A DNA stretch of 59,247 nt from an uncultured Candidatus Saccharibacteria bacterium. GTDB taxonomy: Bacteria > Patescibacteriota > Minisyncoccia > JACQLN01. Below are positions 1,099-59,247 of the stretch, piece after piece. Position numbers and translations under genes: made by a program. The stretch is taken from the NCBI GenBank assembly GCA_964365305.1, contig CAYIPG010000002.1:1-59247 (forward strand), read 5' to 3'. Under the pieces are notes generated by a model. The model worked only from the letters and a program-made list of their open reading frames with translations. It was not told the DNA's origin and did not search any database. Position 1 is the first letter of the stretch. Each line of letters opens with the position of its first letter.

Positions 1099-1297
1099 TT
1101 TGATTTAACATATTTCCATTCCATTTTCCAATTACAATTTACAATGTCATTTTTAGGCGATAGCATAAATGTGACATTGTGGTTTTGAATAATTTAAATA
1201 GAGTGAATAGAGATAGAGATGGTCTAACCTCTCTAATCTGACCTTAAATACACTGAGATAACGATGGATTTCTTGAATGGCAGAAAAAAAGAATGAC

Positions 1298-3271: not shown

Positions 3272-3370
3272 CACGATGCCAATATACGAATTTATACGAA
3301 TGATACTAATACAAATGCGAATGTTTTATTTGTATAATTCGCATGTCATTCGTTGATTAGCATCGCGTCT
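3272..3370 (+). repeat. TACGAAT-family junction cassette, copy 1 (pilM stop to pilN start)
   Basis: CACGATGCCAATATACGAAT...TTTGTATAATTCGCATGTCATTCGTTGATTAGCATCGC. Nested inverted repeats. Confidence 0.9.
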
Positions 3371-4836: not shown

Positions 4837-4936
4837 CACGATGCCAATATACTAATTTATGCGAATGATACTAATAAAAGATTCAAATGTCTTATTTGTA
4901 TAATTCGCATGTCATTCGTTGATTAGCATCGCATAC
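4837..4936 (+). repeat. TACGAAT-family junction cassette, copy 2
   Basis: Same termini and 3' half as copy 1. Spans stop 4836 to ATG 4937. Confidence 0.9.
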
Positions 4937-6661: not shown

Positions 6662-6663
6662 GT

Positions 6664-6731
6664 ATTAGGATGTTAGGAATTAGGAGATTAGGTTCTTGCT
6701 AAAATCCTAATGTTCTACCTAACGGCCTAAT
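6664..6731. repeat. TTAGG/CCTAA word-repeat hairpin element (pilB to receiver gene)
   Basis: ATTAGGATGTTAGGAATTAGGAGATTAGG ... CCTAATGTTCTACCTAACGGCCTAAT. Confidence 0.85.
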
Positions 6732-6742
6732 TACTATATTAA

Positions 6743-8226: not shown

Positions 8227-8327
8227 AACACGATGCCAATATACGAATTTGTACGAATGATACTAATTAAAATTCGAATAACCTATTCGTATAATTCGCA
8301 TGCATTTGTAGATTAGCATCGCATATT
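8227..8327 (+). repeat. TACGAAT-family junction cassette, copy 3
   Basis: Spans pilT stop to pilC ATG. CGTATAAT variant. Confidence 0.9.
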
Positions 8328-9536: not shown

Positions 9537-9645
9537 ACGATGCCAATATACAAATTTATGCGAATGACACGAATAATTATACGAATAAAAATGCATTTGT
9601 GTATCTATTAGTATAATTCGCATGTCATTCGTAGATTAGCATCGC
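9537..9645 (+). repeat. TACGAAT-family junction cassette, copy 4
   Basis: Starts at the pilC stop. Followed by 33 nt of A/T-rich sequence before the pilin ATG. Confidence 0.88.
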
Positions 9646-9678: not shown

Positions 9679-10143
9679 ATGAACAAATTTAGAAAGGGTT
9701 TTACTTTGGTCGAATTATTAGTCGTTATCGCTATCATCGGCATTTTGGCCTCGGTGGTGTTGGTCTCGTTAAACAGCGCTCGCGGCAAAGCCCGAGACGC
9801 CCGCAGAATTGCCGACTTGCACCAGGTGGTTTTGGCGTTAGAAAATTCTTACGATGCTAGCCAAGCATACCCAACTCAAGATACTGGAAATGTTATTCCT
9901 GCCGTTTTGGTCACAGGCGGTCAATTAACGGTTGTACCAACTGACCCAACGAACAGTGGTTCCTATATTTATACTTATAACTCATCTGGTTGTACTGTCG
10001 CTAATCAAAGCTTTACGCTCAAAGCTGTATTGGAGAATAATAATACCGCTGTTAACAGCGATGTTGATGGTACTCAATGCACTCTGGCTTGCGGTACTGG
10101 AGGGACTGCTGGTAATGAAAAGGAATATTGTATAAAACCGTAA
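9679..10143 (+). CDS. type IV pilin (prepilin with N-terminal cleavage/methylation motif)
   Basis: KGFTLVELLVVIAIIGILA class III signal. C-terminal cysteines. Confidence 0.9.
   Translation: MNKFRKGFTLVELLVVIAIIGILASVVLVSLNSARGKARDARRIADLHQVVLALENSYDASQAYPTQDTGNVIPAVLVTGGQLTVVPTDPTNSGSYIYTYNSSGCTVANQSFTLKAVLENNNTAVNSDVDGTQCTLACGTGGTAGNEKEYCIKP
9724..9828 (+). repeat. 105-nt block shared with pilin 2 (104/105 identical)
   Basis: Direct comparison of 9724-9828 with 10210-10314. The single difference is GCCGACTTG versus GCCGATTTG. Confidence 0.9.
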
Positions 10144-10158
10144 TAAATTATTTTTATC

Positions 10159-10638
10159 ATGAAAAATAAAAAATTCTCATCCGGGTTCACATTAGTAGAG
10201 TTGTTGGTGGTTATCGCTATCATCGGCATTTTGGCCTCGGTGGTGTTGGTCTCGTTAAACAGCGCTCGCGGCAAAGCCCGAGACGCCCGCAGAATTGCCG
10301 ATTTGCACCAGGTGACGCTGGCGTTGGAAAATTATAACGACACTAACCGAAACTATCCCGCGACTCTTTCGTTATTAGTGCCAACTTATATGTCGGCCTC
10401 ACCCAAAGATCCTCAAACATCCGCCGATTATAAATACGCGGCTTTGGGTTCGGGCGCGACCTGCAGTAATTATCATTTAGGAGCTGTTTTGGAAAACTCT
10501 ACCCATGCTTCTTTAACTACCGATTCTGATGCTGCGGCGGGGACTGTTTGTACCGGTAGCGACTCTGACTTTGGTGGTGGCACCACCGATTGCGCGGCTG
10601 GCGCCGGCACTGAAGCATGTTACGATGTTAAGCCGTAA
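10159..10638 (+). CDS. type IV pilin paralog 2
   Basis: SGFTLVELLVVIAIIGILA. The N-terminal block is nearly identical at the nucleotide level to pilin 1. Confidence 0.9.
   Translation: MKNKKFSSGFTLVELLVVIAIIGILASVVLVSLNSARGKARDARRIADLHQVTLALENYNDTNRNYPATLSLLVPTYMSASPKDPQTSADYKYAALGSGATCSNYHLGAVLENSTHASLTTDSDAAAGTVCTGSDSDFGGGTTDCAAGAGTEACYDVKP
10210..10314 (+). repeat. 105-nt block shared with pilin 1
   Basis: See 9724-9828. Confidence 0.9.
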
Positions 10639-10645
10639 AGTAGTT

Positions 10646-10720
10646 TTTAGGTGTTAGGGTATTAGGAAATTAGGCGGTTAGTTTTTGATCTAAAATCCTA
10701 ACTCTTAATATCCTAATTCC
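10646..10720. repeat. TTAGG/CCTAA word-repeat hairpin element (pilin 2 to pilin 3)
   Basis: TTAGGTGTTAGGGTATTAGGAAATTAGGCGGTTAG ... CTAAAATCCTAACTCTTAATATCCTAATTCC. Confidence 0.85.
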
Positions 10721-10729
10721 TGTTTCATT

Positions 10730-11170
10730 ATGATTCGTGATTCAAAAGGTTTTACCCTGGTTGAGCTTTTGGTGGTTATCGCTATTATCGGCATTCTAGC
10801 CACGGTGGCTATGGTATCTTTAAATTCAGCTAGAATAAAAGCCCGAGACACCAAAAGAGTAGCCGATATTCGGCAGATTGCTTTGGCTCTGGAATTTTGC
10901 TACAACGAAACCCAAAAATATATTCCCAGCGCTTCTTTTCCCGCCGCCGGCGCGCCCATGACTTGCGGCGGCAATACCTATATTACGACTATGCCGGCTG
11001 ATCCTAGCGGCGGGGATTATCAATATCGTGTTGATAGTGATGCCAATCCACAAAAATATGTTCTAGGAGTTGCCCTAGAAATACTGGCTAATCCTATTTT
11101 GGCTAGCAGTATTCACGGAACTGTTTTGGGACTGGATTGTGATACCCCAGTTTATTGCATTCAACCATAA
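10730..11170 (+). CDS. type IV pilin paralog 3
   Basis: KGFTLVELLVVIAIIGILA. Ends in YCIQP, like its paralogs. Confidence 0.88.
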   Translation: MIRDSKGFTLVELLVVIAIIGILATVAMVSLNSARIKARDTKRVADIRQIALALEFCYNETQKYIPSASFPAAGAPMTCGGNTYITTMPADPSGGDYQYRVDSDANPQKYVLGVALEILANPILASSIHGTVLGLDCDTPVYCIQP

Positions 11171-11175
11171 GCATA

Positions 11176-11202
11176 GGGATTAGGTGTTAGGCCGTTAGGT
11201 GG
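11176..11202. repeat. TTAGG word-repeat half element (after pilin 3)
   Basis: GGGATTAGGTGTTAGGCCGTTAGGTGG with no CCTAA partner arm. Confidence 0.7.
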
Positions 11203-11215
11203 AATATTAGAAAAT

Positions 11216-11240
11216 AGGGGTCTATTATGACCTCTTTTGT
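11216..11240 (+). terminator. intrinsic terminator after the pilin genes
   Basis: AGGGGTC-TATTAT-GACCTCT followed by TTTTGTG. Confidence 0.55.
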
Positions 11241-11259
11241 GTTATAATTTTATATAATT

Positions 11260-12009
11260 ATGACAGGCGCGTTTGCTTTTATTTTGGGTTTGGTCGGGGG
11301 CAGTTTTGTTAATGCCGTGGTGTGGCGTTTGGATAAAAACGAACGGATAGTGTGGGCTAGATCAAAATGCGTTCACTGCCATCATACCTTAGCCGCGGGC
11401 GATCTTGTTCCTTTAATAAGTTTTTTATGGTTGAATGGCCGCTGCCGCTATTGCCGAAAAAATATAAGTTGGCAATATCCAGCGGTGGAATTGGCAGCTG
11501 GTTTGGGCTTTTGGGTTATAACCCAGTCCGGTTTAAGTCCGGAGAATAAAATTTGGCTGGCCGGATTGTTTTTGATAGGACTGGTGATTTTTGTTTATGA
11601 TCTTAAATATACCCTCATTCCTAATGTTTTCATCGCGGTCGGGTTGGTTTGGACGCTGGCCGGAATTTTATTTTTAGAACCCTCGCGGCTCATTTCAGGT
11701 CTTAGCGCGGGTGTGGTTATTTCGGTCTTTTTTCTGATTTTATATCTTGTTTCCAAAGGAGCTTGGATTGGCGGTGGCGATATTAAACTGGGTTTTTTGA
11801 TGGGTTTATGGTTGGGCTGGCCGATGGCTGTGGCGGCTTTGCTTTTTTCGTATATCATTGGAGCTATTATTGGGCTTGCTTTGATTGCTATCCAAAAAGC
11901 CACATTCAAAAGCCAGATACCTTTCGGACCTTTTTTGATTACAGGAGCCGTGGCAGCTTATGTTTTCGGGAGTAGTTTATTGGAATCGTACTTCGGGTTA
12001 TTTTTATGA
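11260..12009 (+). CDS. pilD: prepilin peptidase / N-methyltransferase (A24 family)
   Basis: CVHC...CRYC zinc-finger loop, GGGDIKL aspartyl motif, multiple TM segments. Confidence 0.9.
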   Translation: MTGAFAFILGLVGGSFVNAVVWRLDKNERIVWARSKCVHCHHTLAAGDLVPLISFLWLNGRCRYCRKNISWQYPAVELAAGLGFWVITQSGLSPENKIWLAGLFLIGLVIFVYDLKYTLIPNVFIAVGLVWTLAGILFLEPSRLISGLSAGVVISVFFLILYLVSKGAWIGGGDIKLGFLMGLWLGWPMAVAALLFSYIIGAIIGLALIAIQKATFKSQIPFGPFLITGAVAAYVFGSSLLESYFGLFL

Positions 12010-12045
12010 CTATAATAGTTTTCAATTATCAGTTGCCAGTTTACA
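12010..12045. repeat. TTCAAT/TTACAAT word-repeat junction element
   Basis: TTTTCAATTATCAGTTGCCAGTTTACA followed directly by the ATG, filling pilD stop to next start. Confidence 0.6.
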
Positions 12046-14116: not shown

Positions 14117-16159
14117 ATGACTAAGCGGGAAGCCCAAGCATATATCATTAAGCTAAAAGCGGAGATTAATCATCACCGCTATCTTTATCATGTGTTGGAT
14201 AAAGAGGAGATTTCTCCAAGCGCTTTAGATGCTCTAAAGCGTGAACTTTTTAAACTGGAGCGGGAGTTTCCTGATTTAATAACTCCTGATTCTCCTAGTC
14301 AGCGGGTTGCGGGAAAGGTCTTGCCGTTTTTTAAAAAAGTTACGCACGCGGCGCCGATGCTTTCGTTGGAGGATGTTTTTAATGAGGTTGAATTTTCCGA
14401 GTGGCTGGCTCGCATATCAAAACTGGTGCCCAATGAGAAACTGTATTTTTTTGGCGAACTAAAAATAGACGGTTTCGCGGTTTCTTTGGTTTATAAAAAA
14501 GGAATTCTAGAAACCGGTTCCACTCGAGGCGATGGCCGAACCGGCGAAGATGTAACCAATAATATAAAGACCATAGAAGCGATACCCTTAAGTTTAGTTG
14601 AAATCAGAAAAGCGGATATTGATAAACTTGGACTTGATTATAACCATGTTAATAAGGCTATAGAATCGGGCGATCTAGAAATAAGAGGCGAGGTGTTTAT
14701 GACCAAGGCCTCTTTTAACAAGATCAATATTGAACAAAAAAGGTTGAACCTTCCTGAATATTCCAATCCTAGAAACACCGCTGCCGGCAGTATCAGGCAG
14801 TTGGATCCTCAACTAGCCGCTCGACGCAATTTGGATTTTTTGGCTTACGATATAGTAACTGATTTAGGCCAAGAGACCCATTCACGGGAGCATGCTTTGT
14901 TAAGACATTTGGGTTTTAAAACCGATAGTGAAGCCGAGCAACTGGGCAGTTCCCAAGCGGTGTCCAGTTTTTGGCAGAGGGCTCAAAAGAAAAGAGAAAA
15001 ATTGCCCTGGGAAATAGACGGTGTTGTTATTTCGGTAAACAATAACCAAATTTTTTCGCGTTTGGGCGTGGTGGGTAAAACGCCGCGAGGTATGGTAGCT
15101 TTTAAGTTTCCAGGTAAAGAAGCCACCACCAAAGTTGCTAATATTATTATCCAGGTCGGCCGGACCGGCGTCTTAACTCCAGTGGCAATTTTGGAGCCGG
15201 TGGATATTAACGGCGTCACAGTAACTCGGGCTACCTTGCATAATGAAGACGAAATTCGGCGTTTAGATATTCGGGTGGGCGATACAGTTATTGTTCAGCG
15301 AGCCGGTGATGTAATTCCTAATGTGGTCGCGGTTTTAAAAAATCTTCGTCCCAAAAATGCCAAACAGTTTCACTTTCCTAAAAGGTGTCCGGTTTGCGGC
15401 GGCGAGATTATTCGCTTCTCGGGCGAGGCGGCGCATAAGTGCGTTAATAAAAATTGCCCGGCCAAGAAGAGAGAAAATCTATATCATTTTGTTTCCAAAC
15501 GAGCTTTTAATATTGTGGGTTTAGGACCGGAAATAATAGATAAATTGGCGGATGCCGGTTTGATTAAAGACGCGGCTGATATATTTAAGTTAAAACCGGA
15601 AAATATAATTGAACTAGAAGGATTTGCCGAGGTCTCCGCAAAAAAGTTAGTTGGCTCAATCCAAAAATCAAAAAAGATAACACTCGCCCGATTTATTTAT
15701 TCTTTAGGCATAATTCAGGTGGGTGAAGAAACCGCCAATTTGCTCGCCCTTTATTTTGGCAACTGGGAAAATTTAGCGCGGGCATCGTCAGAGGAATTAG
15801 AAAAAATTCCGGGCGTTGGCTCGGCCGCTTCAACAAGTATTACGGCCTGGTTTAGCAATAAAAATAATAAGGACTTGGTGAAGCGGTTAACAAACAATAG
15901 TGTTGAAATTGAGTCAGTCAAACGCCTTAGCCAAAAACTAACAGGCCAAACCTTTGTTTTTACCGGCGCTTTGGACACAATTAGCCGCGACGACGCCAAA
16001 GAAAAAGTTCGCCTGATGGGCGGGGATGTTTCCGCTTCTGTTTCCAAAGAAACCGATTATGTGGTAGCCGGCGCCGAACCCGGTTCTAAATTTGATAAAG
16101 CCACCAAACTCGGCGTCAAAATAATTTCCGAAAAAGAGTTCTTAAATTTAATAAAATAA
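14117..16159 (+). CDS. ligA: NAD-dependent DNA ligase
   Basis: Adenylation motif ELKIDG, CPVCGG...C zinc finger, HhH and C-terminal BRCT-like region. ATG 14117 (MTKREAQ...) preferred over track start 14018, which overlaps the previous gene. Confidence 0.95.
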   Translation: MTKREAQAYIIKLKAEINHHRYLYHVLDKEEISPSALDALKRELFKLEREFPDLITPDSPSQRVAGKVLPFFKKVTHAAPMLSLEDVFNEVEFSEWLARISKLVPNEKLYFFGELKIDGFAVSLVYKKGILETGSTRGDGRTGEDVTNNIKTIEAIPLSLVEIRKADIDKLGLDYNHVNKAIESGDLEIRGEVFMTKASFNKINIEQKRLNLPEYSNPRNTAAGSIRQLDPQLAARRNLDFLAYDIVTDLGQETHSREHALLRHLGFKTDSEAEQLGSSQAVSSFWQRAQKKREKLPWEIDGVVISVNNNQIFSRLGVVGKTPRGMVAFKFPGKEATTKVANIIIQVGRTGVLTPVAILEPVDINGVTVTRATLHNEDEIRRLDIRVGDTVIVQRAGDVIPNVVAVLKNLRPKNAKQFHFPKRCPVCGGEIIRFSGEAAHKCVNKNCPAKKRENLYHFVSKRAFNIVGLGPEIIDKLADAGLIKDAADIFKLKPENIIELEGFAEVSAKKLVGSIQKSKKITLARFIYSLGIIQVGEETANLLALYFGNWENLARASSEELEKIPGVGSAASTSITAWFSNKNNKDLVKRLTNNSVEIESVKRLSQKLTGQTFVFTGALDTISRDDAKEKVRLMGGDVSASVSKETDYVVAGAEPGSKFDKATKLGVKIISEKEFLNLIK

Positions 16160-16188
16160 AATTATCAAACACCGAGTGTTTGATAATT
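16160..16188. repeat. 29-bp perfect palindrome AATTATCAAACAC-CGA-GTGTTTGATAATT
   Basis: Lies exactly between the ligA stop and the stop of the Y1 gene. Confidence 0.9.
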
Positions 16189-16864
16189 AAAGTTCATCAT
16201 CTATATCTATTCTGTATTTTTCTTCTAAACTTTCCTTAGCGCTACTTTTTTTGATAAAATCGTGATACTTGTAATTTTCGCTAAATTGACCAGTTATAAT
16301 ACCAGGAACCAGTAGTTGTCCCCACCTATTTGTCTCTAAATAATCTTGATAACTTGACCACTCATAATTATGTTCTCTGTTTTTCCAATGTTTTAATCCC
16401 CTTGGGTTTTTGTGTATATAAGCAGAAAGATGAAGAAGTTGGAGGTTGTCATTAATATGTACAGCTTTAAAAGGACCTTGAAATAGATGGCCTATTTTGC
16501 GGTATTTGGTATTAAAGTATTTTGTATATGCATTCTGCACTCGTTGCATATAGTCGGATATACCGTTGTCTTTTATCTCTTTCACAATGATATGAAAATG
16601 GTTTGGCATTAGTGTAAAACCAATTAGATTAACCATCTTGTCTTTCATAAATTTATCGATCCCCTTAATTTTATTAAACACTCGGTGTTTAATAAAATGG
16701 GTTACATTGTAGCCAATATTGTTAAAAGATTGTTCGGATTGCAGATGTAAAATAAGAAAAAGGAATCTAACATAATCTCTTTCGTTTGTGAAAATATTTT
16801 GTTTATTATTACCTCTGTTGAATATATGGAAATGTTCTCCGGGAGCAAATTTAGTTTTCCTCAT
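16187..16864 (-). CDS. IS200/RAYT-like HUH-Y1 transposase-family protein
   Basis: HUH motif LMPNHFHIIV and C-terminal YIHKNP tyrosine motif. Flanked by matching palindromes. Confidence 0.8.
   Translation of the reverse strand: MRKTKFAPGEHFHIFNRGNNKQNIFTNERDYVRFLFLILHLQSEQSFNNIGYNVTHFIKHRVFNKIKGIDKFMKDKMVNLIGFTLMPNHFHIIVKEIKDNGISDYMQRVQNAYTKYFNTKYRKIGHLFQGPFKAVHINDNLQLLHLSAYIHKNPRGLKHWKNREHNYEWSSYQDYLETNRWGQLLVPGIITGQFSENYKYHDFIKKSSAKESLEEKYRIDIDDEL
16669..16697. repeat. 29-bp perfect palindrome TTTTATTAAACAC-TCG-GTGTTTAATAAAA inside the Y1 CDS
   Basis: Encodes FIKHRVFNK. Same AAACAC/GTGTTT core as the flanking palindrome. Confidence 0.9.
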
Positions 16865-16925
16865 AGTTATATTTTAATCTATCGAACACTCGGTGTCTAA
16901 TAAAAATTTGATAGAAGGGACGCTT

Positions 16926-16961
16926 ATAAATAAAAATCCCCACCGGTTTTTTCCGGCGGGG
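16926..16961 (-). terminator. intrinsic terminator of the 39-aa ORF
   Basis: Minus strand: CCCCGCCGG-AAAAAA-CCGGTGGGG followed by ATTTTTATTT. Confidence 0.7.
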
Positions 16962-16994
16962 TGTGTGAGTAACCTCTATCGAGGTTCAACCTCA

Positions 16995-17114
16995 CTAATC
17001 TTTCTTGGGTTTTGGGGGCAGTTTATCTACTAGTTTCGTCCCGATCCACAAAAACAATAAATATCCTACTAGCAGCAGTCCTCCCACTAAATACCCCTTG
17101 TCTAAAAAATCCAT
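16995..17114 (-). CDS. 39-aa predicted membrane peptide (below the ORF-track cutoff)
   Basis: My translation: MDFLDKGYLVGGLLLVGYLLFLWIGTKLVDKLPPKPKKD. Strong SD GGAGGTGAG 5 nt upstream (AGGAGG core 8 nt upstream). Intrinsic terminator downstream at 16926-16961. Confidence 0.6.
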   Translation of the reverse strand: MDFLDKGYLVGGLLLVGYLLFLWIGTKLVDKLPPKPKKD

Positions 17115-17182
17115 TTTCTCACCTCCTTTCTAAGAAGAACTCATTTGAGAGACATATTACTCTTTTTAATTAAAATGTCAAA

Positions 17183-17211
17183 TTTAACTATGGTAAAAAA
17201 CTTGCTATCAT
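17183..17211 (+). promoter_or_regulatory. candidate promoter of the gatC leader (TTTAAC-17-TATCAT with TGC extension)
   Basis: Sequence match only. Confidence 0.4.
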
Positions 17212-17217
17212 AAAGTC

Positions 17218-17372
17218 ATATGACCACAGCACCAAAGCCCAGCCGTATCAGTGCTAGTAAAATGGTTGTCTGCGAGATGCCTGCGGCTCACTTCCTACAC
17301 TACGGATTACAGAAGCAGGATTGGTGCTGGGTCTATATTTTATAGTCGTTCACTATCGTTCACGAATAAAAT
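17218..17372 (+). promoter_or_regulatory. conserved structured 5' leader upstream of gatC (paralog of the proS leader)
   Basis: Shares GCCTGCGGCT, GATTTGGTGC(T/G)GGGT(C/T)TATATTTT(A/G)TAGTCG and CTCACGAA(T/C)AAAATATG with 49842-50008. A long-range helix is conserved. Confidence 0.6.
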
Positions 17373-17675: not shown

Positions 17676-17722
17676 CCTAATCAAATCCCAATTTCCAATG
17701 TTCAATTTACAATAAATTTTCA
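17676..17722. repeat. TTCAAT/TTACAAT word-repeat junction element (gatC to gatA)
   Basis: CCAATTTCCAATGTTCAATTTACAATAAATTTTCA followed directly by the ATG. Confidence 0.7.
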
Positions 17723-19168
17723 ATGAACCAATTTTCAAATTTGACCATAACTAAAGCGCGGGAGTTGTTGGATAATAAAGAAATTTCGGCGGTGGAATTA
17801 ACTCAATATTATTTAAATCAGATCAAATCCAAAAACAAAGATCTGAACGCTTTTTTGAGTGTGTCCGAATCGGCGCTGGATCAAGCTAAAAAATCAGACG
17901 AAGAAATCAAAAATGGCTCGGCTGGTTCTTTGGTTGGAATACCTTTGGCTATCAAAGATAATATTCTGGTCAAAGACGAAATTTGCACCGCCGGTTCCAA
18001 AATTTTAGAAAAATATAAAGCCGCGTATGATGCCACGGTTATTACCCGGCTAAAAAGAGCCGGCGCGGTGATTTTGGGAAAAACAAATTTAGACGAATAC
18101 GCTATGGGTTCGTCCACGGAAAACTCCGCTTTCGGTCCCACTAAAAATCCATACGATACTTCTCGCGTCCCCGGCGGTTCCTCGGGCGGATCGGCGGCCG
18201 CCGTGGCGGCCGAGATGTGTTTGGGCGCTTTGGGCACCGATACCGGCGGATCTATTCGCCAGCCCGCCAGTTTTTGCGGCGTGGTGGGATTAAAGCCAAC
18301 CTACGGCGCGGTTTCTCGTTTTGGCGCGGTGGCTTTGGGATCTTCACTAGATCAAATCGGCCCTCTGGCTAAAACAATTGAAGATGCCAGTTTAATTTTT
18401 GATGTTATTTCCGGCCACGACCCGTTGGATTCCACAACCGTGCCTAACAATACCCGAACCGCCGAACGAATTGCCGAAATAAACATTGGTGATTTAAGAA
18501 TCGGTTGGCCTAAAGAATATTTTGAGGCCGAGGGCATAGATCCAAAAGTCAAAGAAACTGTTCAAAAAGCCATAGCGTGGTATGAAGCGCAAGGTGCTAA
18601 AATTAAAGAAATCAGTTTGCCGCATACCCAATATGCTCTGGCGGCCTATTATATTATTCAACCAGCCGAATGCTCGGCCAATCTGGCCCGCTACGATGGT
18701 GTTCGTTATGGCGAGAGATCGGGTGATGGAGACCTAATGTCGGTTTATACCCAGAGCCGCGGCGAATTTTTAGGTGAGGAAACCCAGCGCCGCGTCATGA
18801 TTGGAACTTATGTTTTGTCTTCGGGTTATTACGACGCTTATTATTCCAAGGCGCAAAAAGTGAGAAGTTTAATTAAACAAGATTTTATAAACGCCTTTGA
18901 GGAAGTGGATGTGATTATGACGCCAACCTCCCCGGTCACGGCTTTCAAAATAGGCGAGCGGGTTAGCAATCCTTTAGCCATGTACGCCGCCGATATTTTT
19001 ACGGTTACCGCTAACCTTGCCGGTATTTGCGGCTTGTCCATCAACTGCGGCCAAGTAGACGGCTTGCCGGTGGGCTTGCAAATTTTAGGGCCGTGGTTTG
19101 AGGAGAATTTATTATTTAAAGTTGGTGAATTTTTTACACGATGCCAATATACAAATTTATGCGAATGA
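17723..19168 (+). CDS. gatA: Asp/Glu-tRNA amidotransferase subunit A
   Basis: Amidase signature GGSSGGSAAAVAA. The last 10 codons and the stop are encoded by the junction cassette. Confidence 0.93.
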   Translation: MNQFSNLTITKARELLDNKEISAVELTQYYLNQIKSKNKDLNAFLSVSESALDQAKKSDEEIKNGSAGSLVGIPLAIKDNILVKDEICTAGSKILEKYKAAYDATVITRLKRAGAVILGKTNLDEYAMGSSTENSAFGPTKNPYDTSRVPGGSSGGSAAAVAAEMCLGALGTDTGGSIRQPASFCGVVGLKPTYGAVSRFGAVALGSSLDQIGPLAKTIEDASLIFDVISGHDPLDSTTVPNNTRTAERIAEINIGDLRIGWPKEYFEAEGIDPKVKETVQKAIAWYEAQGAKIKEISLPHTQYALAAYYIIQPAECSANLARYDGVRYGERSGDGDLMSVYTQSRGEFLGEETQRRVMIGTYVLSSGYYDAYYSKAQKVRSLIKQDFINAFEEVDVIMTPTSPVTAFKIGERVSNPLAMYAADIFTVTANLAGICGLSINCGQVDGLPVGLQILGPWFEENLLFKVGEFFTRCQYTNLCE

Positions 19169-19233
19169 TACGAATAAAAATTCGAATGTCTTATTTGTAT
19201 AATTCGTATGTATTCGTAGATTAGCATCACATT
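19136..19233 (+). repeat. TACGAAT-family junction cassette, copy 5 (overlaps the gatA 3' end)
   Basis: ACACGATGCCAATATACAAAT...GTATAATTCGTATGTATTCGTAGATTAGCATCAC. The gatA stop 19166-19168 lies inside it. Confidence 0.9.
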
Positions 19234-25934: not shown

Positions 25935-26038
25935 GGGCTTGGCCCAAGAGTGAAGCGATTGGTCGCCAAACCTTAACCGCGTCAGACGCGGTGCTCAATT
26001 TTAAAATTATTCATTAATCATTCATAAATAAAATTGGC

Positions 26039-29980: not shown

Positions 29981-30048
29981 TTTTCTCGCTTTAATCCAAT
30001 TTTAACCCAAGCCCTGTCACATGCTATACTTTTAAAATATTATACTTT

Positions 30049-30076
30049 GCATGAGATAACGATCGTTATCTCATGC
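30049..30076. repeat. 28-bp perfect palindrome GCATGAGATAACGATCGTTATCTCATGC upstream of wHTH-Cas2-like gene A
   Basis: Follows a TATACT -10-like box. The 26-bp core is identical to 30695-30720. Confidence 0.92.
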
Positions 30077-30129
30077 AATATTTAGTCCAATATCAAATTA
30101 TATATCAAGCTATATATCAACAAACTATT

Positions 30130-30699
30130 ATGAAATCCGGTGGGAAATTACAAAGATTGGGTCCAAATCAGCAAAAGGTTTTATTGCTTTTATTTGGCGG
30201 GGTGGGATTAATGTTATCCCAATCCATTAAGACACAATTTAGAGTTATTAAAGAGGTCTCTAAAGAATGGAAAAATATAAATAATTTGAGTTTGAGAAGA
30301 GCGATTACTACTTTATATAAATCCAAACTTATTTTAGAAAAAGAAAATCCAGACGGGACGACCACTATGTTTTTAACTGAAAAGGGTAAAGAGAAGGCCA
30401 TCACTTTTAATATAGAAACAATAAAAATTATGTCGCCAAAGAGATGGGATAAAAAATGGCGGTTAGTTGTCTTTGATATACCGGAAAAGAAAAGAAAGGC
30501 TCGCGATGCTTTGAGAGAGGTATTAAAGAAGATGGAGTTTTATGAATATCAAAAAAGCATTTTTATTCACCCTTACCATTGTAGAGATGAGTTAGATTAT
30601 ATCATTGAATTTTTTAGGATGAGACCTTATGTTAGGTTAATTGTGTCGGAGGAATTAGATAATGAATTACATCTTAGAAAGATTTTCAACCTATCATGA
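30130..30699 (+). CDS. winged-helix (PaaX-N-like) plus Cas2/VapD-like domain protein
   Basis: WDKKWRLVVFDIPEKKRKARDALREVLKKMEFYEYQKSIFIHPY matches the Cas2-like beta1-alpha1 pattern with conserved Asp. The track N-terminus from 30073 is low-complexity repeat DNA. Confidence 0.75.
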   Translation: MKSGGKLQRLGPNQQKVLLLLFGGVGLMLSQSIKTQFRVIKEVSKEWKNINNLSLRRAITTLYKSKLILEKENPDGTTTMFLTEKGKEKAITFNIETIKIMSPKRWDKKWRLVVFDIPEKKRKARDALREVLKKMEFYEYQKSIFIHPYHCRDELDYIIEFFRMRPYVRLIVSEELDNELHLRKIFNLS

Positions 30700-30724
30700 G
30701 ATAACGATCGTTATCTCATGATAG
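30691..30724. repeat. 34-bp perfect palindrome CTATCATGAGATAACGATCGTTATCTCATGATAG overlapping the stop codon of gene A
   Basis: Stop TGA 30697-30699 lies in the left arm. 26-bp core identical to the upstream copy. Confidence 0.92.
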
Positions 30725-30782
30725 ATATGGTAGGTTAGATCTATTGTTAAATATTTTTTAGCAGATTAGAATTGCTTTATAT

Positions 30783-36404: not shown

Positions 36405-36518
36405 ATGAAGGTACGACCATCAGTAAAGAAAATTTGTAACAAGTGCAAAATAGTCCGCCGGAATGGGACGGTTTATGTTATTTGTGAAACCCCCAAGCAT
36501 AAACAGCGACAAGGTTAA
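36405..36518 (+). CDS. rpmJ: 50S ribosomal protein L36 (below the ORF-track cutoff)
   Basis: My translation: [37 protein letters not shown]. Confidence 0.9.
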
Positions 36519-36596
36519 CTTTACGAAATACGAATGGTACGAATTTACGAATTCAATCCATTAGTATATTTGTAAAAATTCGTATTTAGTAAAGAT
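36519..36596 (+). repeat. TACGAAT-family variant junction element (rpmJ to rpsM)
   Basis: TTTACGAAATACGAATGGTACGAAT...AATTCGTA...GTAAAGAT-ATG. Shares its ends with 37430-37514. Confidence 0.85.
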
Positions 36597-37429: not shown

Positions 37430-37514
37430 TTTTACGAAATACGAATGGTACGAATATACTAATAAATTCAAAACCCAATTCGTAAATTTGTAAAGATTAA
37501 TAATTCGTAAAGAT
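37430..37514 (+). repeat. TACGAAT-family variant junction element (rpsK to rpsD)
   Basis: TTTTACGAAATACGAATGGTACGAAT...AATTCGTAAAGAT-ATG. Confidence 0.85.
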
Positions 37515-39336: not shown

Positions 39337-39381
39337 TGCGATGCCAATATACGAATTCATGCGAATGATGCGAATAGAAAT
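39337..39381 (+). repeat. TACGAAT-family junction cassette, 5' half only
   Basis: TGCGATGCCAATATACGAATTCATGCGAATGATGCGAAT between the rplQ stop and the rplM ATG. Confidence 0.8.
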
Positions 39382-49722: not shown

Positions 49723-49806
49723 TTTTTACTCCTTTCTTTATTGGGTTTTTGATTGGGAAGGAACGATTTCAAACTAGCATTATTAATCAAATGGTGTCAA
49801 GTTTTG

Positions 49807-49835
49807 TTGTCAATGGGAGTTAGTGGTGCTAAAAT
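49807..49835 (+). promoter_or_regulatory. candidate sigma-70 promoter TTGTCA-17-TAAAAT (TGC extension) for the proS leader
   Basis: Sequence match. Confidence 0.5.
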
Positions 49836-49841
49836 CAATCA

Positions 49842-50008
49842 ATTATTTGGTATGCGACCCCAGCATCAAAATCCGACCATGCTTTGACAACTAATAAAAT
49901 TTTTTCAGCGATACGCCTGCGGCTTCTATTCTGCACTAAATTATATCATCGGCAGATTTGGTGCGGGGTTTATATTTTGTAGTCGCTCGCTTCGCTCACG
50001 AACAAAAT
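49842..50008 (+). promoter_or_regulatory. conserved structured 5' leader upstream of proS (paralog of the gatC leader)
   Basis: See 17218-17372. Helix GACCCC-A-GCAUCAAA / UUUGGUGC-GGGGUU. Confidence 0.6.
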
Positions 50009-52305: not shown

Positions 52306-53100
52306 ATGGTGAGATGGCAACAGGCGCTGGCGATTTTTATTTTAACGCTGGTCTTGTTCTTTTCCGACAAGGCCGGTTTTTTTGATTTCGGCGTTAATAT
52401 AATCAATAAATTCACAGTGTCTCCCATCACTAAATTTACCGCCGGCGCGTTGGAAGAATCTTTTTTTATTTTTAAAAACTTCTTGGGCATCCGCCAGATA
52501 ATCAGAGAAAATCTTTTTTTAAGGAGTCAACGCGATTTTTTTAGGGGGGAGTATTTTAAATTGTTGGGAATAGAACAAGAAAATGATTTTTTGCGTCAGG
52601 CCTTAAATTCAGAAAAAGAAAGCAGCTCTAAAATTATTCTGGCGCGTATTGTGTCGTTTGATCCGTTTTATGCCAGCGAGGTGTTTTTAATAGACAAGGG
52701 TTCGGCCGATGGTGTCAACGCCAATGACGCGGTTATTCTGCCTGGCGGGATAGTTGTGGGGCATATTAAGGGTATAAGTTCAAAAGAAAGCCGTGTTTTA
52801 TTGATAACTTCGGCTCAAAGCCGGGTGACAGTGTCTTCGAAAAATAGCCAAATCAGCGGGGTTGTTTCTGGATCGGCCAGCGGCGCTTTAAATTTGGATC
52901 TTGTCTTAAAAAACACCCAATTAAGCCCAGGGGAGATTTTAATTACTTCCGGGTTAGATGGAATTTTTCCGGCGGATTTATTGGTGGGCGAAATAACAAA
53001 AATTACCGATAACAGCGCCGCGTCTTTCCGCCAGGCCTCGGTCCGGCCATTTTTCACACTCCGAGATCTCAAGCAAGTTTTTGTGGTTGTCTCAAAATAA
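52306..53100 (+). CDS. mreC: rod shape-determining protein MreC
   Basis: TM, coiled coil, then GLDGIFPADLLVGEI. Directly after mreB. Confidence 0.85.
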   Translation: MVRWQQALAIFILTLVLFFSDKAGFFDFGVNIINKFTVSPITKFTAGALEESFFIFKNFLGIRQIIRENLFLRSQRDFFRGEYFKLLGIEQENDFLRQALNSEKESSSKIILARIVSFDPFYASEVFLIDKGSADGVNANDAVILPGGIVVGHIKGISSKESRVLLITSAQSRVTVSSKNSQISGVVSGSASGALNLDLVLKNTQLSPGEILITSGLDGIFPADLLVGEITKITDNSAASFRQASVRPFFTLRDLKQVFVVVSK

Positions 53101-53102
53101 TC

Positions 53103-53125
53103 ATATCGGTTTGCGAAACCGATAT
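53103..53125. repeat. 23-bp palindrome ATATCGGTTT-GCG-AAACCGATAT
   Basis: 13 nt upstream of ATG 53138. Confidence 0.9.
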
Positions 53126-53137
53126 ATAATACGAATT

Positions 53138-53857
53138 ATGTATAGTAAAAAGTCATACCCAGGTAATTTGTATCATGTCCTTAATCGTGGTGTTGATAAG
53201 AGGATTATCTTTATCGATAAAGTTGATTATTTAAGATTTATTCGTATTTTGTACGATTTTAATAATATTGAACCGGTGAGTAATTTTAGTTATTTTTTTG
53301 CTAAACAAAAACAAGAAAATTCTATTGGTTTCGCAAACAGATATGGAGTTGGATATAATCAGGGTTCTAGAAAGGTGCTGGTTGATGTTTTGGCTTTTGT
53401 TCTTATGCCCAATCATTATCATTTATTATTAAAACCGCGAATTGAAAATGGTGTAACTCTTTTTATGAAGAAAATTAATATTGGCTATGCGAATTATTTT
53501 AATAAAAAATATGAACGGAGTGGTGCTTTATTCCAAGGGCGTTACAAATCTGTGATTGTGACTAAGGAAGCTCATTTTATACATTTACCTTATTATATTC
53601 ATGCTAATCCTTTGGACTTGGTTATTCCTGAATGGAGAGATGGAAAAGTAAGAAACCCAAAAAAAGCAATGAACTTTTTGAAAAGTTATCGTTGGAGTAG
53701 TTTTAGTGATTATATCGGTCGTGTGAATTTTCCACTAACAACTCAAAGGGATTTTCTTTTGGAATTTGTAGGTGGAACTACAAGGTACAAAATAAATTTT
53801 TCAGAGTGGCTTCGAGCGATGGATATGGATAAACTAAACAGCTTTACTTTGGAATAA
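53138..53857 (+). CDS. IS200/RAYT-like HUH-Y1 transposase-family protein, paralog 2
   Basis: LMPNHYHLLLKP (HUH) and YYIHANP (Tyr motif). ATG 53138; the track start 53081 reads through the flanking palindrome. Confidence 0.8.
   Translation: MYSKKSYPGNLYHVLNRGVDKRIIFIDKVDYLRFIRILYDFNNIEPVSNFSYFFAKQKQENSIGFANRYGVGYNQGSRKVLVDVLAFVLMPNHYHLLLKPRIENGVTLFMKKINIGYANYFNKKYERSGALFQGRYKSVIVTKEAHFIHLPYYIHANPLDLVIPEWRDGKVRNPKKAMNFLKSYRWSSFSDYIGRVNFPLTTQRDFLLEFVGGTTRYKINFSEWLRAMDMDKLNSFTLE
53323..53343. repeat. degenerate intragenic copy TATTGGTTT-CGC-AAACAGATA
   Basis: Encodes SIGFANRY. Differs at 2 positions from the 3' flank copy. Confidence 0.8.
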
Positions 53858-58417: not shown

Positions 58418-58507
58418 TGAATTTTCAATTTTTAAATTCCAATTATCAATCAATTTTCAATGTTTCAATTTTCAATGTTTTCTTACTTGTAAATTGTAAA
58501 TTGTAAA
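58418..58507. repeat. TTCAAT / ATTGTAAA word-repeat hairpin element (ftsK to RodZ-like gene)
   Basis: TTTTCAAT x4 in the 5' half, (TGTAAAT)x3 and ATTGATAATTG in the 3' half. CAATTATCAAT pairs with ATTGATAATTG. Confidence 0.8.
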
Positions 58508-59191: not shown

Positions 59192-59247
59192 CACGATGCC
59201 AATATACGAATGTATTCGAATGATACAAATGAATAAACGAATTTGTG
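59192..59247 (+). repeat. TACGAAT-family junction cassette, copy truncated by the window end
   Basis: ACACGATGCCAATATACGAATGTATTCGAATGATAC... directly after stop 59191. Confidence 0.85.

What the first reader, a model, noticed from the sequence alone, without database searches (positions are those of the whole stretch)
3272..3370. Stop-to-start junction cassettes of about 100 bp (TACGAAT family), at least 7 copies in 59 kb
**Copies (seen).** Near-identical elements lie at 3272-3370, 4837-4936, 8227-8327, 9537-9645 and 19136-19233. A 5' half copy lies at 39337-39381, and a copy cut by the window end lies at 59192-59247.

**Placement (seen).**
- Four of the five full copies, plus the window-end copy, begin with (A)CACGATGCCAATATAC directly after the upstream stop codon; copy 5 instead begins about 30 nt before the gatA stop, and the half copy starts TGCGATGCC.
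- Four of the five full copies end with GATTAGCATC(G/A)C 2-5 nt before the downstream ATG (copy 4 is followed by 33 further nt), so the element is the entire intergenic region.

**Internal structure (seen).**
- The 5' half is built from roughly 10-nt phased words: TACGAAT, GCGAAT and TACTAAT.
- The 3' half, TTATTTGTATAATTCGCATGTCATTCGTWGATTAGCATCGC, is the most conserved part and always contains TATAAT. Three copies have the extended form TGTATAAT.
- Nested complementarity in copy 1: CGATGCCAAT/ATTAGCATCG (9/10; the mismatch is C-A on the sense strand and would be G-U on the antisense strand), ACGAATGA/TCATTCGT, and ATGCGAAT/ATTCGCAT.
- No Shine-Dalgarno-like sequence precedes the downstream ATGs.

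**Possible roles (inference).** The options are:
- portable internal promoters;
- an intercistronic RNA hairpin that brings the upstream stop next to the downstream start, for re-initiation, processing or stability;
- a MITE-like element with strict junction targeting.

I know of no described element with this stop-to-start precision.
Basis: partly seen in the sequence, partly recalled or inferred. Interest (0 to 1): 0.82.

Follow-up and report, generated by a model that had tools for sequence, protein, structure and literature searches.

The report
Mobile hairpin repeats between operon genes
The ~100-base cassettes are real: they are gene-less copies of a hairpin-shaped selfish DNA element that is widespread in Patescibacteria, of the same kind as the "intervening sequences" known from ribosomal RNA genes, and here they fill the tiny gaps between genes of operons.

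Summary
There are five full copies, one left-arm copy and one copy cut by the window end. All are far above chance and all lie on the gene strand. The same contig holds the rest of copy 7 and an eighth copy on the minus strand, inside a minus-strand operon.

Each element is an imperfect palindrome. Each 37-nt arm is CGATGCCAAT plus three 8-nt ATACNAAT words, and the loop is free to vary. The family occurs in more than 119 metagenome contigs and in several Patescibacteria MAGs.

- Copies lie between genes in both orientations, inside 16S and 23S rRNA genes, and in frame inside ORFs.
- In four related pilus operons the same junctions are empty (1-14 nt) or hold other word-hairpin families.
- Longer relatives carry a GxxExxY PD-(D/E)XK nuclease gene in the loop, and its first eight codons are the left arm.
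- Sister families carry the 23S-rRNA-IVS four-helix-bundle gene.

Best reading: an ORF-less, MITE-like derivative of an IVS-type hairpin element. Its stop-to-start exactness mostly reflects very short native spacers and the need to be co-transcribed. Promoter and translational-coupling roles remain untested. No published description was found, so I rate it a new variant of a known kind.

The parts
3272..3370 (+). Copy 1. Fills the whole pilM|pilN spacer. Palindrome core 3274-3364.
   Evidence: (108.5 bits). RNA hairpin with z = -3.1 on the sense strand and -6.4 on the antisense strand.
4837..4936 (+). Copy 2. Fills the whole spacer between the 100-aa gene and pilB.
   Evidence: (103.3 bits). 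The orthologous junction in L127 is empty, with 11 nt.
8227..8327 (+). Copy 3. Fills the whole pilT|pilC spacer.
   Evidence: It is the only copy with a full sigma-70-like match on the + strand. Relatives carry other families at this junction.
9537..9645 (+). Copy 4. Lies after the pilC stop, has a longer loop, and is followed by 33 nt before the pilin ATG.
   Evidence: In L127, pilC and the pilin gene overlap by 11 nt, so that site is empty.
19136..19233 (+). Copy 5. Overlaps the 3' end of gatA, supplying its last 10 codons and stop, and ends 3 nt before the next ATG.
   Evidence: The homologous junction in L111 reads TAAATG with no element.
39337..39381 (+). Left-arm-only copy filling the rplQ|rplM spacer.
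   Evidence: 34.7 bits, model positions 4-55.
59192..59247 (+). Copy 7, cut by the window end. On the source contig it is complete and fills the spacer between the HTH_25 gene and recA.
   Evidence: L130 13016-13123, 85.6 bits.
36514..36596 (+). Sister family (termini CTTTACGAAA...TTTAGTAAAG, same TACGAAT words) in the rpmJ|rpsM spacer.
   Evidence: D13; z = -5.3; the hairpin spans 92% of the spacer. This is the dominant family in relative L126.
37430..37514 (+). Second copy of that sister family, in the rpsK|rpsD spacer.

Best explanation
**What it is.** The cassettes are ORF-less, MITE-like copies of a Patescibacteria-wide family of imperfect-palindrome selfish elements.
- Each 37-nt arm is a terminal CGATGCCAAT followed by three 8-nt ATACNAAT words.
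- The right arm is the inverted copy of the left arm.
- The loop is free in length and sequence.

**The full-length form.**
- Full-length relatives carry a small GxxExxY PD-(D/E)XK nuclease gene in the loop.
- The start codon and first eight codons of that gene (MHTNDTNK) are the left arm itself.
- Sister families are built from other words. They carry either GxxExxY or the '23S rRNA intervening-sequence' four-helix-bundle gene.
- Members of this very family sit inside 16S and 23S rRNA genes.

The element is therefore the same kind of thing as a bacterial rRNA intervening sequence (IVS), but seeded into the gaps between cistrons.

**Shown here:**
- the anatomy of the element;
- its wide distribution;
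- presence/absence and family replacement at orthologous junctions;
- ORF-bearing relatives with the same arms;
- copies inside rRNA genes.

**Inferred:**
1. Copies spread or are homogenised with the help of the loop-encoded nuclease acting in trans.
2. They survive only where they are harmless. In these compact operons that means the 1-14-nt gap between a stop and the next start, which produces the stop-to-start look.
3. Sense orientation is inherited from forms whose ORF depends on read-through transcription.
4. In the polycistronic mRNA the insert folds into a long imperfect hairpin. RNase III then cuts it, as in IVSs, or the terminating ribosome opens it, so the upstream stop and downstream start stay functionally close.
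For: **Palindrome and copy number.**

**Distribution.**
- Three further Patescibacteria MAGs carry it.
- No viral contig carries it.

**Contexts.**
- Tandem co-oriented 35, tandem anti-oriented 16, other 30.
- Tandem or abutting copies also occur.
- Copies lie inside rRNA genes in L013, L055, L080 and L104.
- A half element lies in frame inside gatA of L111.

**Junction polymorphism in four syntenic pil operons (PilC 76-93% identical).** The same junctions are empty (1, 11, 12 or 14 nt, or overlapping genes) or hold different word-hairpin families. All families are stop-to-start exact.

**ORF-bearing forms.**
- GxxExxY genes (TIGR04256, E = 2e-27 and 1e-18; PF13366) are bracketed by the same left and right arms in L016, L051, L056 and L121, in four different gene contexts.
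- Four-helix-bundle genes (TIGR02436, E = 8e-36; PF05635, E = 1e-38) lie in loops of other word-hairpins.
- More than 1256 homologues exist, and 12 of 12 sampled start with the arm-encoded MH(T/A)N(D/Y/N)TN, i.e. the MHTNDTNK motif or a close variant.
- The arm family tracks ORF relatedness.

**Known parallel.** The Coxiella IVS is described as a selfish element. It has a 28-bp terminal inverted-repeat stem, an S23p ORF in the loop and heptamer direct repeats, and RNase III cuts within the stem (PMC4990558). Short ORF-less insertions are common in CPR rRNA genes (PMC11270868).

**Whole-spacer hairpins are general here.** Twelve of the 27 same-strand spacers of at least 34 nt are single whole-spacer hairpins or nearly so.
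Against: - No target-site duplication could be recognised.
- No ORF-bearing copy lies on the 75 kb of the source contig that I could read. The mobilising activity of GxxExxY is pure inference.
- Arms are 95-99% identical between orthologous sites whose coding flanks are only 66-75% identical.
- The stop codon ends exactly 2 nt before the element in 19 of 66 co-oriented cases, and the ATG follows after 4-8 nt in 20 of 54.
- On this contig 8 of 8 copies follow the transcription direction, including one in a minus-strand operon embedded among plus-strand genes.

The last three points could equally indicate host-level selection, that is, a function.

- Four arm positions keep mismatches through coordinated changes (G.A to T.C; Fisher p about 1e-7 at three of them, 0.01 at the fourth). 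I cannot explain this.
- No transcript or cleavage data exist.
Confidence: 0.6

Rival explanations
1. Host-selected operon punctuation. The hairpin is kept because it serves the operon in one of two ways:
- It enforces translational coupling. The terminating ribosome melts the stem base and frees the start region, which has no Shine-Dalgarno sequence.
- It acts as an RNase III processing and stabilising site between cistrons, as in phage T7 early mRNAs.
For: - The geometry is fixed: the stop ends 2 nt before the stem and the ATG lies 4-8 nt after it.
- Arms are more conserved than the coding flanks at orthologous sites.
- 8 of 8 copies on this contig are co-oriented with transcription, on both strands.
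- No Shine-Dalgarno sequence precedes the downstream genes, which include recA, rpsR, pilB and pilC.
- Whole-spacer hairpins of several unrelated word families fill the same kind of junction.
Against: - Any given junction can be empty in a close relative, so no copy is individually required.
- 16 of 51 tandem copies are in the opposite orientation. Others lie in convergent or divergent spacers, rRNA genes and ORFs.
- Sense and antisense RNA stabilities do not differ significantly, and the antisense strand is if anything more stable (24 vs 36; p = 0.056).
- The variable stem positions mostly preserve mismatches rather than pairs.
- Most genes in the window lack a Shine-Dalgarno sequence anyway.
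Confidence: 0.2
2. Portable internal promoter. The TATAAT box in the 3' arm starts transcription about 25 nt upstream of the downstream ATG, as described for Correia elements in Neisseria.
For: - TATAAT is present in 6 of the 7 copies on the contig whose 3' arm could be read, always about 32 nt before the ATG.
- Copy 3 has TTAAAA-17-TATAAT.
- Family-wide, TATAAT points to the downstream gene in 30 of 47 tandem cases.
Against: - Only 1 of 5 window copies passes the two-hexamer consensus, and antisense matches are as frequent.
- TG abuts TATAAT directly, which is not the TGn spacing of an extended -10 box.
- Copy 8 has no TATAAT.
- The 30:17 bias is weak, and TATAAT is simply the complement of one state of an asymmetric arm position.
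- Copies occur where no promoter is needed: inside rRNA genes, convergent spacers and ORFs.
Confidence: 0.1
3. REPIN/RAYT-type system. The hairpins are REP doublets mobilised as single-stranded DNA by one of the two IS200-like (Y1) tyrosine transposases encoded in the window.
For: - Two Y1_Tnp genes lie in the window, at 53081-53857 (+) and 16187-16864 (-). Both match PF01797 (E = 7e-9 and 7e-10) and have a weak best hit to the NCBIfam REP-associated tyrosine transposase model.
- The element has REPIN-like size and hairpin form.
- It lacks a target-site duplication.
- Its orientation is biased.
Against: - The Y1 genes here and in L126 and L015 are flanked by their own, unrelated short hairpins (for example AAACACCGAGTGTTT), not by TACGAAT arms.
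- Both score 39 bits against a family cut-off of 80.
- There is no GTAG-type conserved 5' tetranucleotide.
- On this contig orientation follows transcription, not a single replication direction.
- The arms are instead physically linked to GxxExxY genes.
Confidence: 0.07

Closest known systems
Bacterial rRNA intervening sequences (IVS), e.g. Coxiella burnetii, Leptospira, Salmonella
   Same: - Terminal inverted repeats form a long stem.
- The loop is either empty or carries a small ORF of the S23p / four-helix-bundle family.
- Short direct word repeats occur in the arm.
- The distribution is sporadic and looks horizontal.
- Members of this very family lie inside 16S and 23S rRNA genes.
   Different: - The window copies lie between protein-coding cistrons, not in rRNA.
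- This family's loop ORF is a GxxExxY PD-(D/E)XK nuclease, not S23p.
- The family has many copies per genome, about one per 9 kb on this contig.
- RNase III cleavage is not shown here.
- The one rRNA insertion I mapped (L104) is not at a classical helix 9, 25 or 45 site.
MITEs, especially Neisseria Correia elements (CREE)
   Same: - Length of about 100 bp with inverted-repeat ends.
- Non-coding, with many copies in intergenic spacers of operons.
- Transcribed as a hairpin.
- Can carry -10-like boxes.
- A longer ORF-bearing relative has the same ends.

The Correia properties listed here are from my own knowledge.
   Different: - No TA (or any other) target-site duplication is recognisable.
- The partner ORF is a small PD-(D/E)XK nuclease, not a known transposase.
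- The arms are built of phased 8-nt words.
- There is no sequence similarity to Correia elements.
REPINs (REP doublets) with RAYT transposases
   Same: - An imperfect hairpin of about 100 nt, made of two inverted halves and a spacer.
- Extragenic and abundant.
- Copies within a genome resemble each other more than copies between genomes do.
   Different: - The Y1 genes present are not flanked by these arms.
- There is no GTAG tag.
- The family is shared by very diverse lineages and GC contents, whereas REPINs are described as vertically inherited (abstracts listed).
Mycobacterial interspersed repetitive units (MIRU)
   Same: Intercistronic elements inside operons, oriented with the genes, whose ends overlap or abut the flanking stop and start codons (my own knowledge: Supply et al. 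1997).
   Different: MIRUs are direct tandem units containing small ORFs, not palindromes. The copies here are single hairpins.
Rickettsia palindromic elements (RPE)
   Same: Palindromic repeats that can sit in frame inside protein genes. Here a half element encodes HDANIRMYTNDTNK in gatA of L111, and copy 5 encodes the gatA tail.
   Different: Most copies here are intergenic, and there is no sequence relationship to RPEs.

Membership tests
MITE | Short (<300 bp), non-coding, multi-copy | tested here: met
   The elements are 74-142 nt. At least 8 copies lie on one contig and more than 119 loci carry the family elsewhere.
MITE | Terminal inverted repeats | tested here: met
   The termini are CGATGCCAATATAC...GTATATTAGCATCG. 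The whole 37-nt arms are inverted, with 75% of cells paired.
MITE | Target-site duplication flanking each copy | tested here: inconclusive
   The flank logos show only G at -1 and C at +1, which extend the palindrome, plus A-rich flanks. No duplicated flank was seen. No filled/empty pair close enough to read a duplication was available.
MITE | Autonomous relative with the same ends encoding the mobilising enzyme | tested here: inconclusive
   Relatives with the same arms carry a GxxExxY PD-(D/E)XK gene. That this enzyme mobilises the element is not shown.
MITE | Insertion polymorphism between related genomes | tested here: met
   The same pil-operon junctions are filled, empty, or filled by another family in the window, L126, L127 and L129.
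rRNA intervening sequence (IVS) | Located within an rRNA gene | tested here: not met
   The window copies are intercistronic. Other members of the same family are inside 16S (L013) and 23S (L055, L080, L104) genes.
rRNA intervening sequence (IVS) | Terminal complementary sequences forming a stem, with an optional small ORF (S23p) in the loop | tested here: met
   The stem is shown. Loop ORFs are GxxExxY in this family and PF05635 / TIGR02436 in sister families.
rRNA intervening sequence (IVS) | Excised from the transcript by RNase III | not testable with these tools
   No RNA data exist. A motif search for RNase III on the contig stretches held found nothing, which is uninformative for an incomplete genome.
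REPIN/RAYT | A RAYT gene flanked by the same REP/REPIN sequences | tested here: not met
   The Y1_Tnp genes in the window, L126 and L015 are flanked by unrelated short hairpins. They score 39 bits against the NCBIfam cut-off of 80.
REPIN/RAYT | Two inverted REPs separated by a short spacer, forming a hairpin | tested here: met
Sigma-70 promoter cassette | -35 and -10 hexamers at 16-18 nt spacing, oriented towards the downstream gene | tested here: inconclusive
   Only 1 of 5 window copies passes the consensus. TATAAT is present in 6 of 7 readable contig copies. The family-wide orientation bias is 30:17.
Rfam RNA families | Match to a curated covariance model | tested here: not met
   There were no matches at the gathering threshold in the whole window. 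Only sub-threshold hits to miRNA-precursor hairpins appeared.
MIRU | Tandem direct repeat units with small ORFs overlapping the flanking stop and start | tested here: not met
   The copies are single palindromic units, not tandem direct units.

The most novel reading that the evidence does not exclude
Word-built hairpins carrying, or derived from carriers of, GxxExxY nuclease or four-helix-bundle genes form a distinct and so far undescribed class of mobile element.
- The class homes to stop-start junctions and rRNA helices of Patescibacteria by a nuclease- and structure-guided mechanism, without a transposase.
- rRNA intervening sequences are only its best-known special case.
- The ORF-less copies have been co-opted as operon punctuation. 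That would explain the fixed 2-nt and 5-nt offsets, arms conserved above the coding flanks, sense orientation and mismatch-preserving covariation.
Probability: 0.25. Interest if true: 0.85.

Novelty: new variant of a known kind. Interest (0 to 1): 0.62.

Why it matters
- **Origin of IVSs.** How rRNA intervening sequences arise and spread is still described as unclear (PMC4990558). Here the same architecture is found in hundreds of copies, in ORF-bearing and ORF-less forms, at polymorphic junctions of protein operons as well as in rRNA genes. That gives a data-rich system in which mobility, the role of the GxxExxY and four-helix-bundle proteins, and RNase III processing can be tested directly.
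- **Annotation.** Many "hypothetical" N-terminal extensions, odd C-terminal tails and rRNA insertions in CPR genomes are pieces of these elements.
- **Gene expression.** Essential genes such as recA, rpsR and pilB lie a few nucleotides behind a long hairpin and have no Shine-Dalgarno sequence. How they are translated is a concrete, testable question in these unculturable bacteria.

Tried and rejected
**Known RNA or chance**
- Known RNA family: Rfam gave nothing at the gathering threshold, and only weak miRNA-like hairpin hits at E < 10.
- Chance or assembly artefact: rejected by the shuffles and by independent assemblies.
- One genome-contig hit (L006, Vallitaleaceae) is a chance match without the internal words.

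**Mobile-element leads**
- Phage origin: no viral contig carries the pattern.
- Autonomous element between distant arms in L073 and L043: these are separate partial copies at ribosomal-protein junctions, with no transposase between them.
- Clustering of 921 flanking ORFs found no classical transposase family. It did reveal the GxxExxY and four-helix-bundle clusters.
- Y1/RAYT link: the Y1 genes have flanks of their own.
- P0139 (70 contigs): all eight places shown are the same locus in different samples, so it is not evidence of multiple copies.
- L016, upstream of pilB: the upstream gene is not the window's 100-aa gene, so it is not an orthologous filled site.

**RNA-level tests**
- Strand-specific RNA structure: sense versus antisense stability is not significantly different. 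The mismatch state is not linked to gene direction.
- Compensatory covariation within the subfamily: 1 of 31 pairs, with a covariation term of +0.87.

**Not pursued, or found nothing**
- TIGR-Tas arrays came up in a literature search. I did not pursue them because the elements are single hairpins, not tandem arrays. I did not test for a Tas gene.
- Literature searches found no description of such elements in Patescibacteria.
- A look-up of the last window protein with its TTG start found nothing.

Full report
**1.
- The sequences at 3272-3370, 4837-4936, 8227-8327, 9537-9645 and 19136-19233 are as described. So are the left-arm copy at 39337-39381 and the truncated copy at 59192-59247.
- The terminal motifs are far above chance: 11 matches against 0.34 expected, and 6 against 0.40.
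- A profile built from the five full copies finds them at 92-108 bits. It also matches each copy's reverse complement at about 40 bits. The whole element is therefore one long imperfect palindrome.
- The flanking genes are:
  - pilM, pilN/O-like genes, pilB, pilT, pilC and a pilin;
  - gatA;
  - ribosomal-protein genes;
  - an HTH_25 gene.
- Independent gene calls on the source contig confirm the ATG starts 3-5 nt after the element.
- The source is an 89-kb contig from Hainich groundwater. The same sequence occurs in another replicate assembly.
- Rfam has no match, and the window holds no tRNA gene.

**2. More copies on the same contig.**
- Beyond the window end, copy 7 is complete and fills the HTH_25|recA spacer.
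- An eighth copy lies on the minus strand between ssb and rpsR, in a minus-strand rpsF-ssb-rpsR operon. It is again stop-to-start, and it lacks TATAAT.
- All eight strong copies therefore follow the direction of transcription on both strands. This argues against a simple replication-strand bias.

**3. The family is very large.**
- A termini pattern found copies in three other Patescibacteria MAGs.
No viral contig matched.
- The consensus is CGATGCCAAT ATACGAAT GC ATACTAAT G ATACGAAT - loop - ATTCGTAT C ATTAGTAT GC ATTCGTAT ATTAGCATCG. The modal length is 74 nt, with a range of 47-182.
- A subfamily in GC-rich genomes keeps the AT-rich arms around a GC-rich central hairpin.
- The window's version (GATTAGCATCGC end, TATAAT) is a minority subfamily. 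It is shared with L004, L009, L074, L101 and L112.

**4. Contexts.**
- Among de-duplicated full copies, 35 are tandem and co-oriented with the genes, 16 are tandem and anti-oriented, and 30 lie in other contexts.
- When co-oriented, the upstream stop ends 1-6 nt before CGATGCC in 42 of 66 cases, with a sharp peak at 2 nt (19 cases).
- The ATG follows the right end after 4-8 nt in 20 of 54 cases.
- TAA at positions -5 to -3 is seen only when an upstream gene is co-oriented. It is therefore the stop codon, not part of the element. G at -1 and C at +1 extend the palindrome.
- Copies also lie inside 16S and 23S rRNA genes. In L104 the insertion sits at LSU model positions of about 225-232.
- A half element lies in frame in gatA of L111. 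Tandem or abutting arrays also occur.

**5. Junctions are polymorphic.** Four syntenic pilus operons were compared, with PilC 76-93% identical.

| Junction | Window | L126 | L127 | L129 |
|---|---|---|---|---|
| pilM-pilN | this element | CTTTACGAAA family | TTAGC/GCTAA family | variant of this family |
| pilO-p100 | empty, 12 nt | occupied | empty, 1 nt | occupied |
| p100-pilB | this element | CTTTACGAAA family | empty, 11 nt | 218-nt unrelated element |
| RR-pilT | empty, 14 nt | occupied | occupied | occupied |
| pilC-pilin | this element | CTTTACGAAA family | genes overlap by 11 nt | variant of this family |

- Every family is stop-to-start exact.
- L037 carries yet another family at pilT|pilC. 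L111 reads TAAATG at the gatA junction.
- In the window itself, twelve of the 27 same-strand spacers of at least 34 nt are single whole-spacer hairpins or nearly so. Most have z of -3 or below and span at least 80% of the spacer; two are borderline. They belong to several word families.
- Exactness is thus largely a consequence of native spacers of only 1-14 nt.

**6. ORF-bearing relatives.**
- In L016, L051, L056 and L121 the same left arm is followed by a GxxExxY (PDDEXK_3) gene and then the right arm. The four gene contexts differ.
- In L126 a GxxExxY gene sits in the loop of the sister family, exactly at pilT|pilC.
- Four-helix-bundle ('23S rRNA intervening-sequence protein') genes sit in loops of other word-hairpins in L042, L100 and L120.
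- The GxxExxY start codon and first eight codons, ATG CAT ACT AAT GAT ACG AAT AAA, are arm words.
- More than 1256 homologues exist. All 12 sampled, from five candidate phyla, begin with the arm-encoded MH(T/A)N(D/Y/N)TN.
- ORFs 57-85% identical share these arms. ORFs 33-44% identical have other arms.
- This matches the published anatomy of an IVS, as described in the Coxiella paper (PMC4990558):
  - a terminal inverted-repeat stem;
  - an optional small ORF in the loop;
  - direct heptamer repeats;
  - RNase III cleavage within the stem;
  - an unclear origin.
- It also fits the many short ORF-less insertions reported in CPR rRNA genes (PMC11270868).

**7. Tests of function.**
- Promoter: only copy 3 passes a full sigma-70 consensus. 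TATAAT points downstream in 30 of 47 tandem cases.
- RNA structure:
  - The hairpins are significant (z = -2 to -6). In the window the antisense strand folds better in copies 1-3.
  - Family-wide, sense and antisense do not differ significantly (24 vs 36; p = 0.056).
  - Within the subfamily there is almost no covariation.
- Across 86 distinct copies:
  - arm positions 15, 19, 29 and 34 keep mismatches through coordinated changes (G.A to T.C; Fisher p = 5e-8, 3e-7, 4e-8 and 0.01);
  - position 25 shows true compensation (T-A to G-C; p = 2e-5);
  - the mismatch state is unrelated to gene direction.
- Orthologous copies whose coding flanks are 66-75% identical have arms 95-99% identical and unrelated loops. 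This implies either selection on the arms or continuing homogenisation.

**8. Reading.**
- Best supported: an ORF-less, MITE-like derivative of an IVS-type hairpin element. It is tolerated only in inter-cistronic gaps, and it is sense-oriented because its parent depends on read-through.
- Inferred, not shown: mobilisation or homogenisation by the loop nuclease, and RNase III or ribosome opening of the hairpin in mRNA.
- A host function (coupling or processing) is the main rival. The fixed offsets, arm conservation and strict orientation on this contig all favour it.
- A REPIN/RAYT link is unlikely, because the two Y1 genes in the window have their own unrelated flanking hairpins.
- I found no published description of such elements in Patescibacteria.

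Noticed in passing
window 6662-6742, 10639-10729, 11171-11259: A second word-hairpin family. TTAGG words in the 5' arm and CCTAA words in the 3' arm fill the pilB|response-regulator spacer and the spacers between pilin genes (z about -5.5 for the first two).
   Followed up: partly
window 1099-1160, 12010-12045, 17676-17722, 58418-58507: Spacers built of phased (T)TTCAAT / CCAAT words. The last one ends in three TTGTAAA repeats. Some do not fold into a hairpin (z about 0).
   Followed up: partly
window 25935-26038; L127 9884-10000; L129 6137-6354 and 8622-8813: Another recurrent intergenic element. It starts GGGCTTGGCCCAAGA...GGTTGCCAAACCTTA-CCCCGCCC and ends ...GGGCGGGGTGCTCAATTTT. It runs 100-220 nt, lies at different junctions in different genomes, and has no Rfam match.
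   Followed up: no
window 16187-16864 (-) with 16156-16188 and 16873-16905; window 53081-53857 (+): Two IS200-like / RAYT-like Y1 tyrosine transposase genes (31.6% identical to each other). The first is bracketed by its own palindrome TATCAAACACCGAGTGTTTGATA. A relative (L126) has a homologue inserted in the pilin cluster, with different flanking hairpins.
   Followed up: partly
window 30034-30086 and 30679-30731: A perfect 26-nt palindrome, CATGAGATAACGATCGTTATCTCATG, occurs on both sides of the 208-aa gene at 30073-30699. It could be an operator pair or the ends of a small cassette.
   Followed up: no
L111 about 11555-11591 (minus strand); L108: Half elements lie in frame inside genes. In gatA of L111 the arm encodes HDANIRMYTNDTNK in place of a variable linker. 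In L108 an arm is read through in an aminoacyl-tRNA-synthetase-like ORF.
   Followed up: partly
arms of 86 family copies (positions 15, 19, 29, 34 vs 25): At four arm positions coordinated changes preserve mismatches (G.A to T.C) and Watson-Crick combinations are depleted. The middle word shows ordinary compensatory change. The pattern is unrelated to gene direction and remains unexplained.
   Followed up: yes
L013, L080, L104 (rRNA genes): Nearly identical copies with the same loop and the same outer GAGCG-word inverted flanks (GCTTCGCTCACTG.AG ... ATAGCGAGCGGAGCGAGC) sit in 16S and in two different 23S positions. The mobile unit there seems to be a composite of an outer and an inner hairpin.
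   Followed up: partly
L126 vs window, pil operon: PilC is 93% identical between the two, yet every junction that holds the CGATGCC family in the window holds the CTTTACGAAA family in L126. Copies within each genome are near-identical to one another. This points to lineage-specific replacement or homogenisation at the same junctions.
   Followed up: partly
window 16865-17372 and 49723-49957: Two long leaders (508 and 235 nt), upstream of gatC and of a class II aminoacyl-tRNA synthetase gene, share a GCCTGCGGCT-containing stretch. Neither has an Rfam match.
   Followed up: no
window 9679-11170: Three tandem pilin paralogues whose 5' 181 nt are 66-85% identical (repeat family D1).
   Followed up: no
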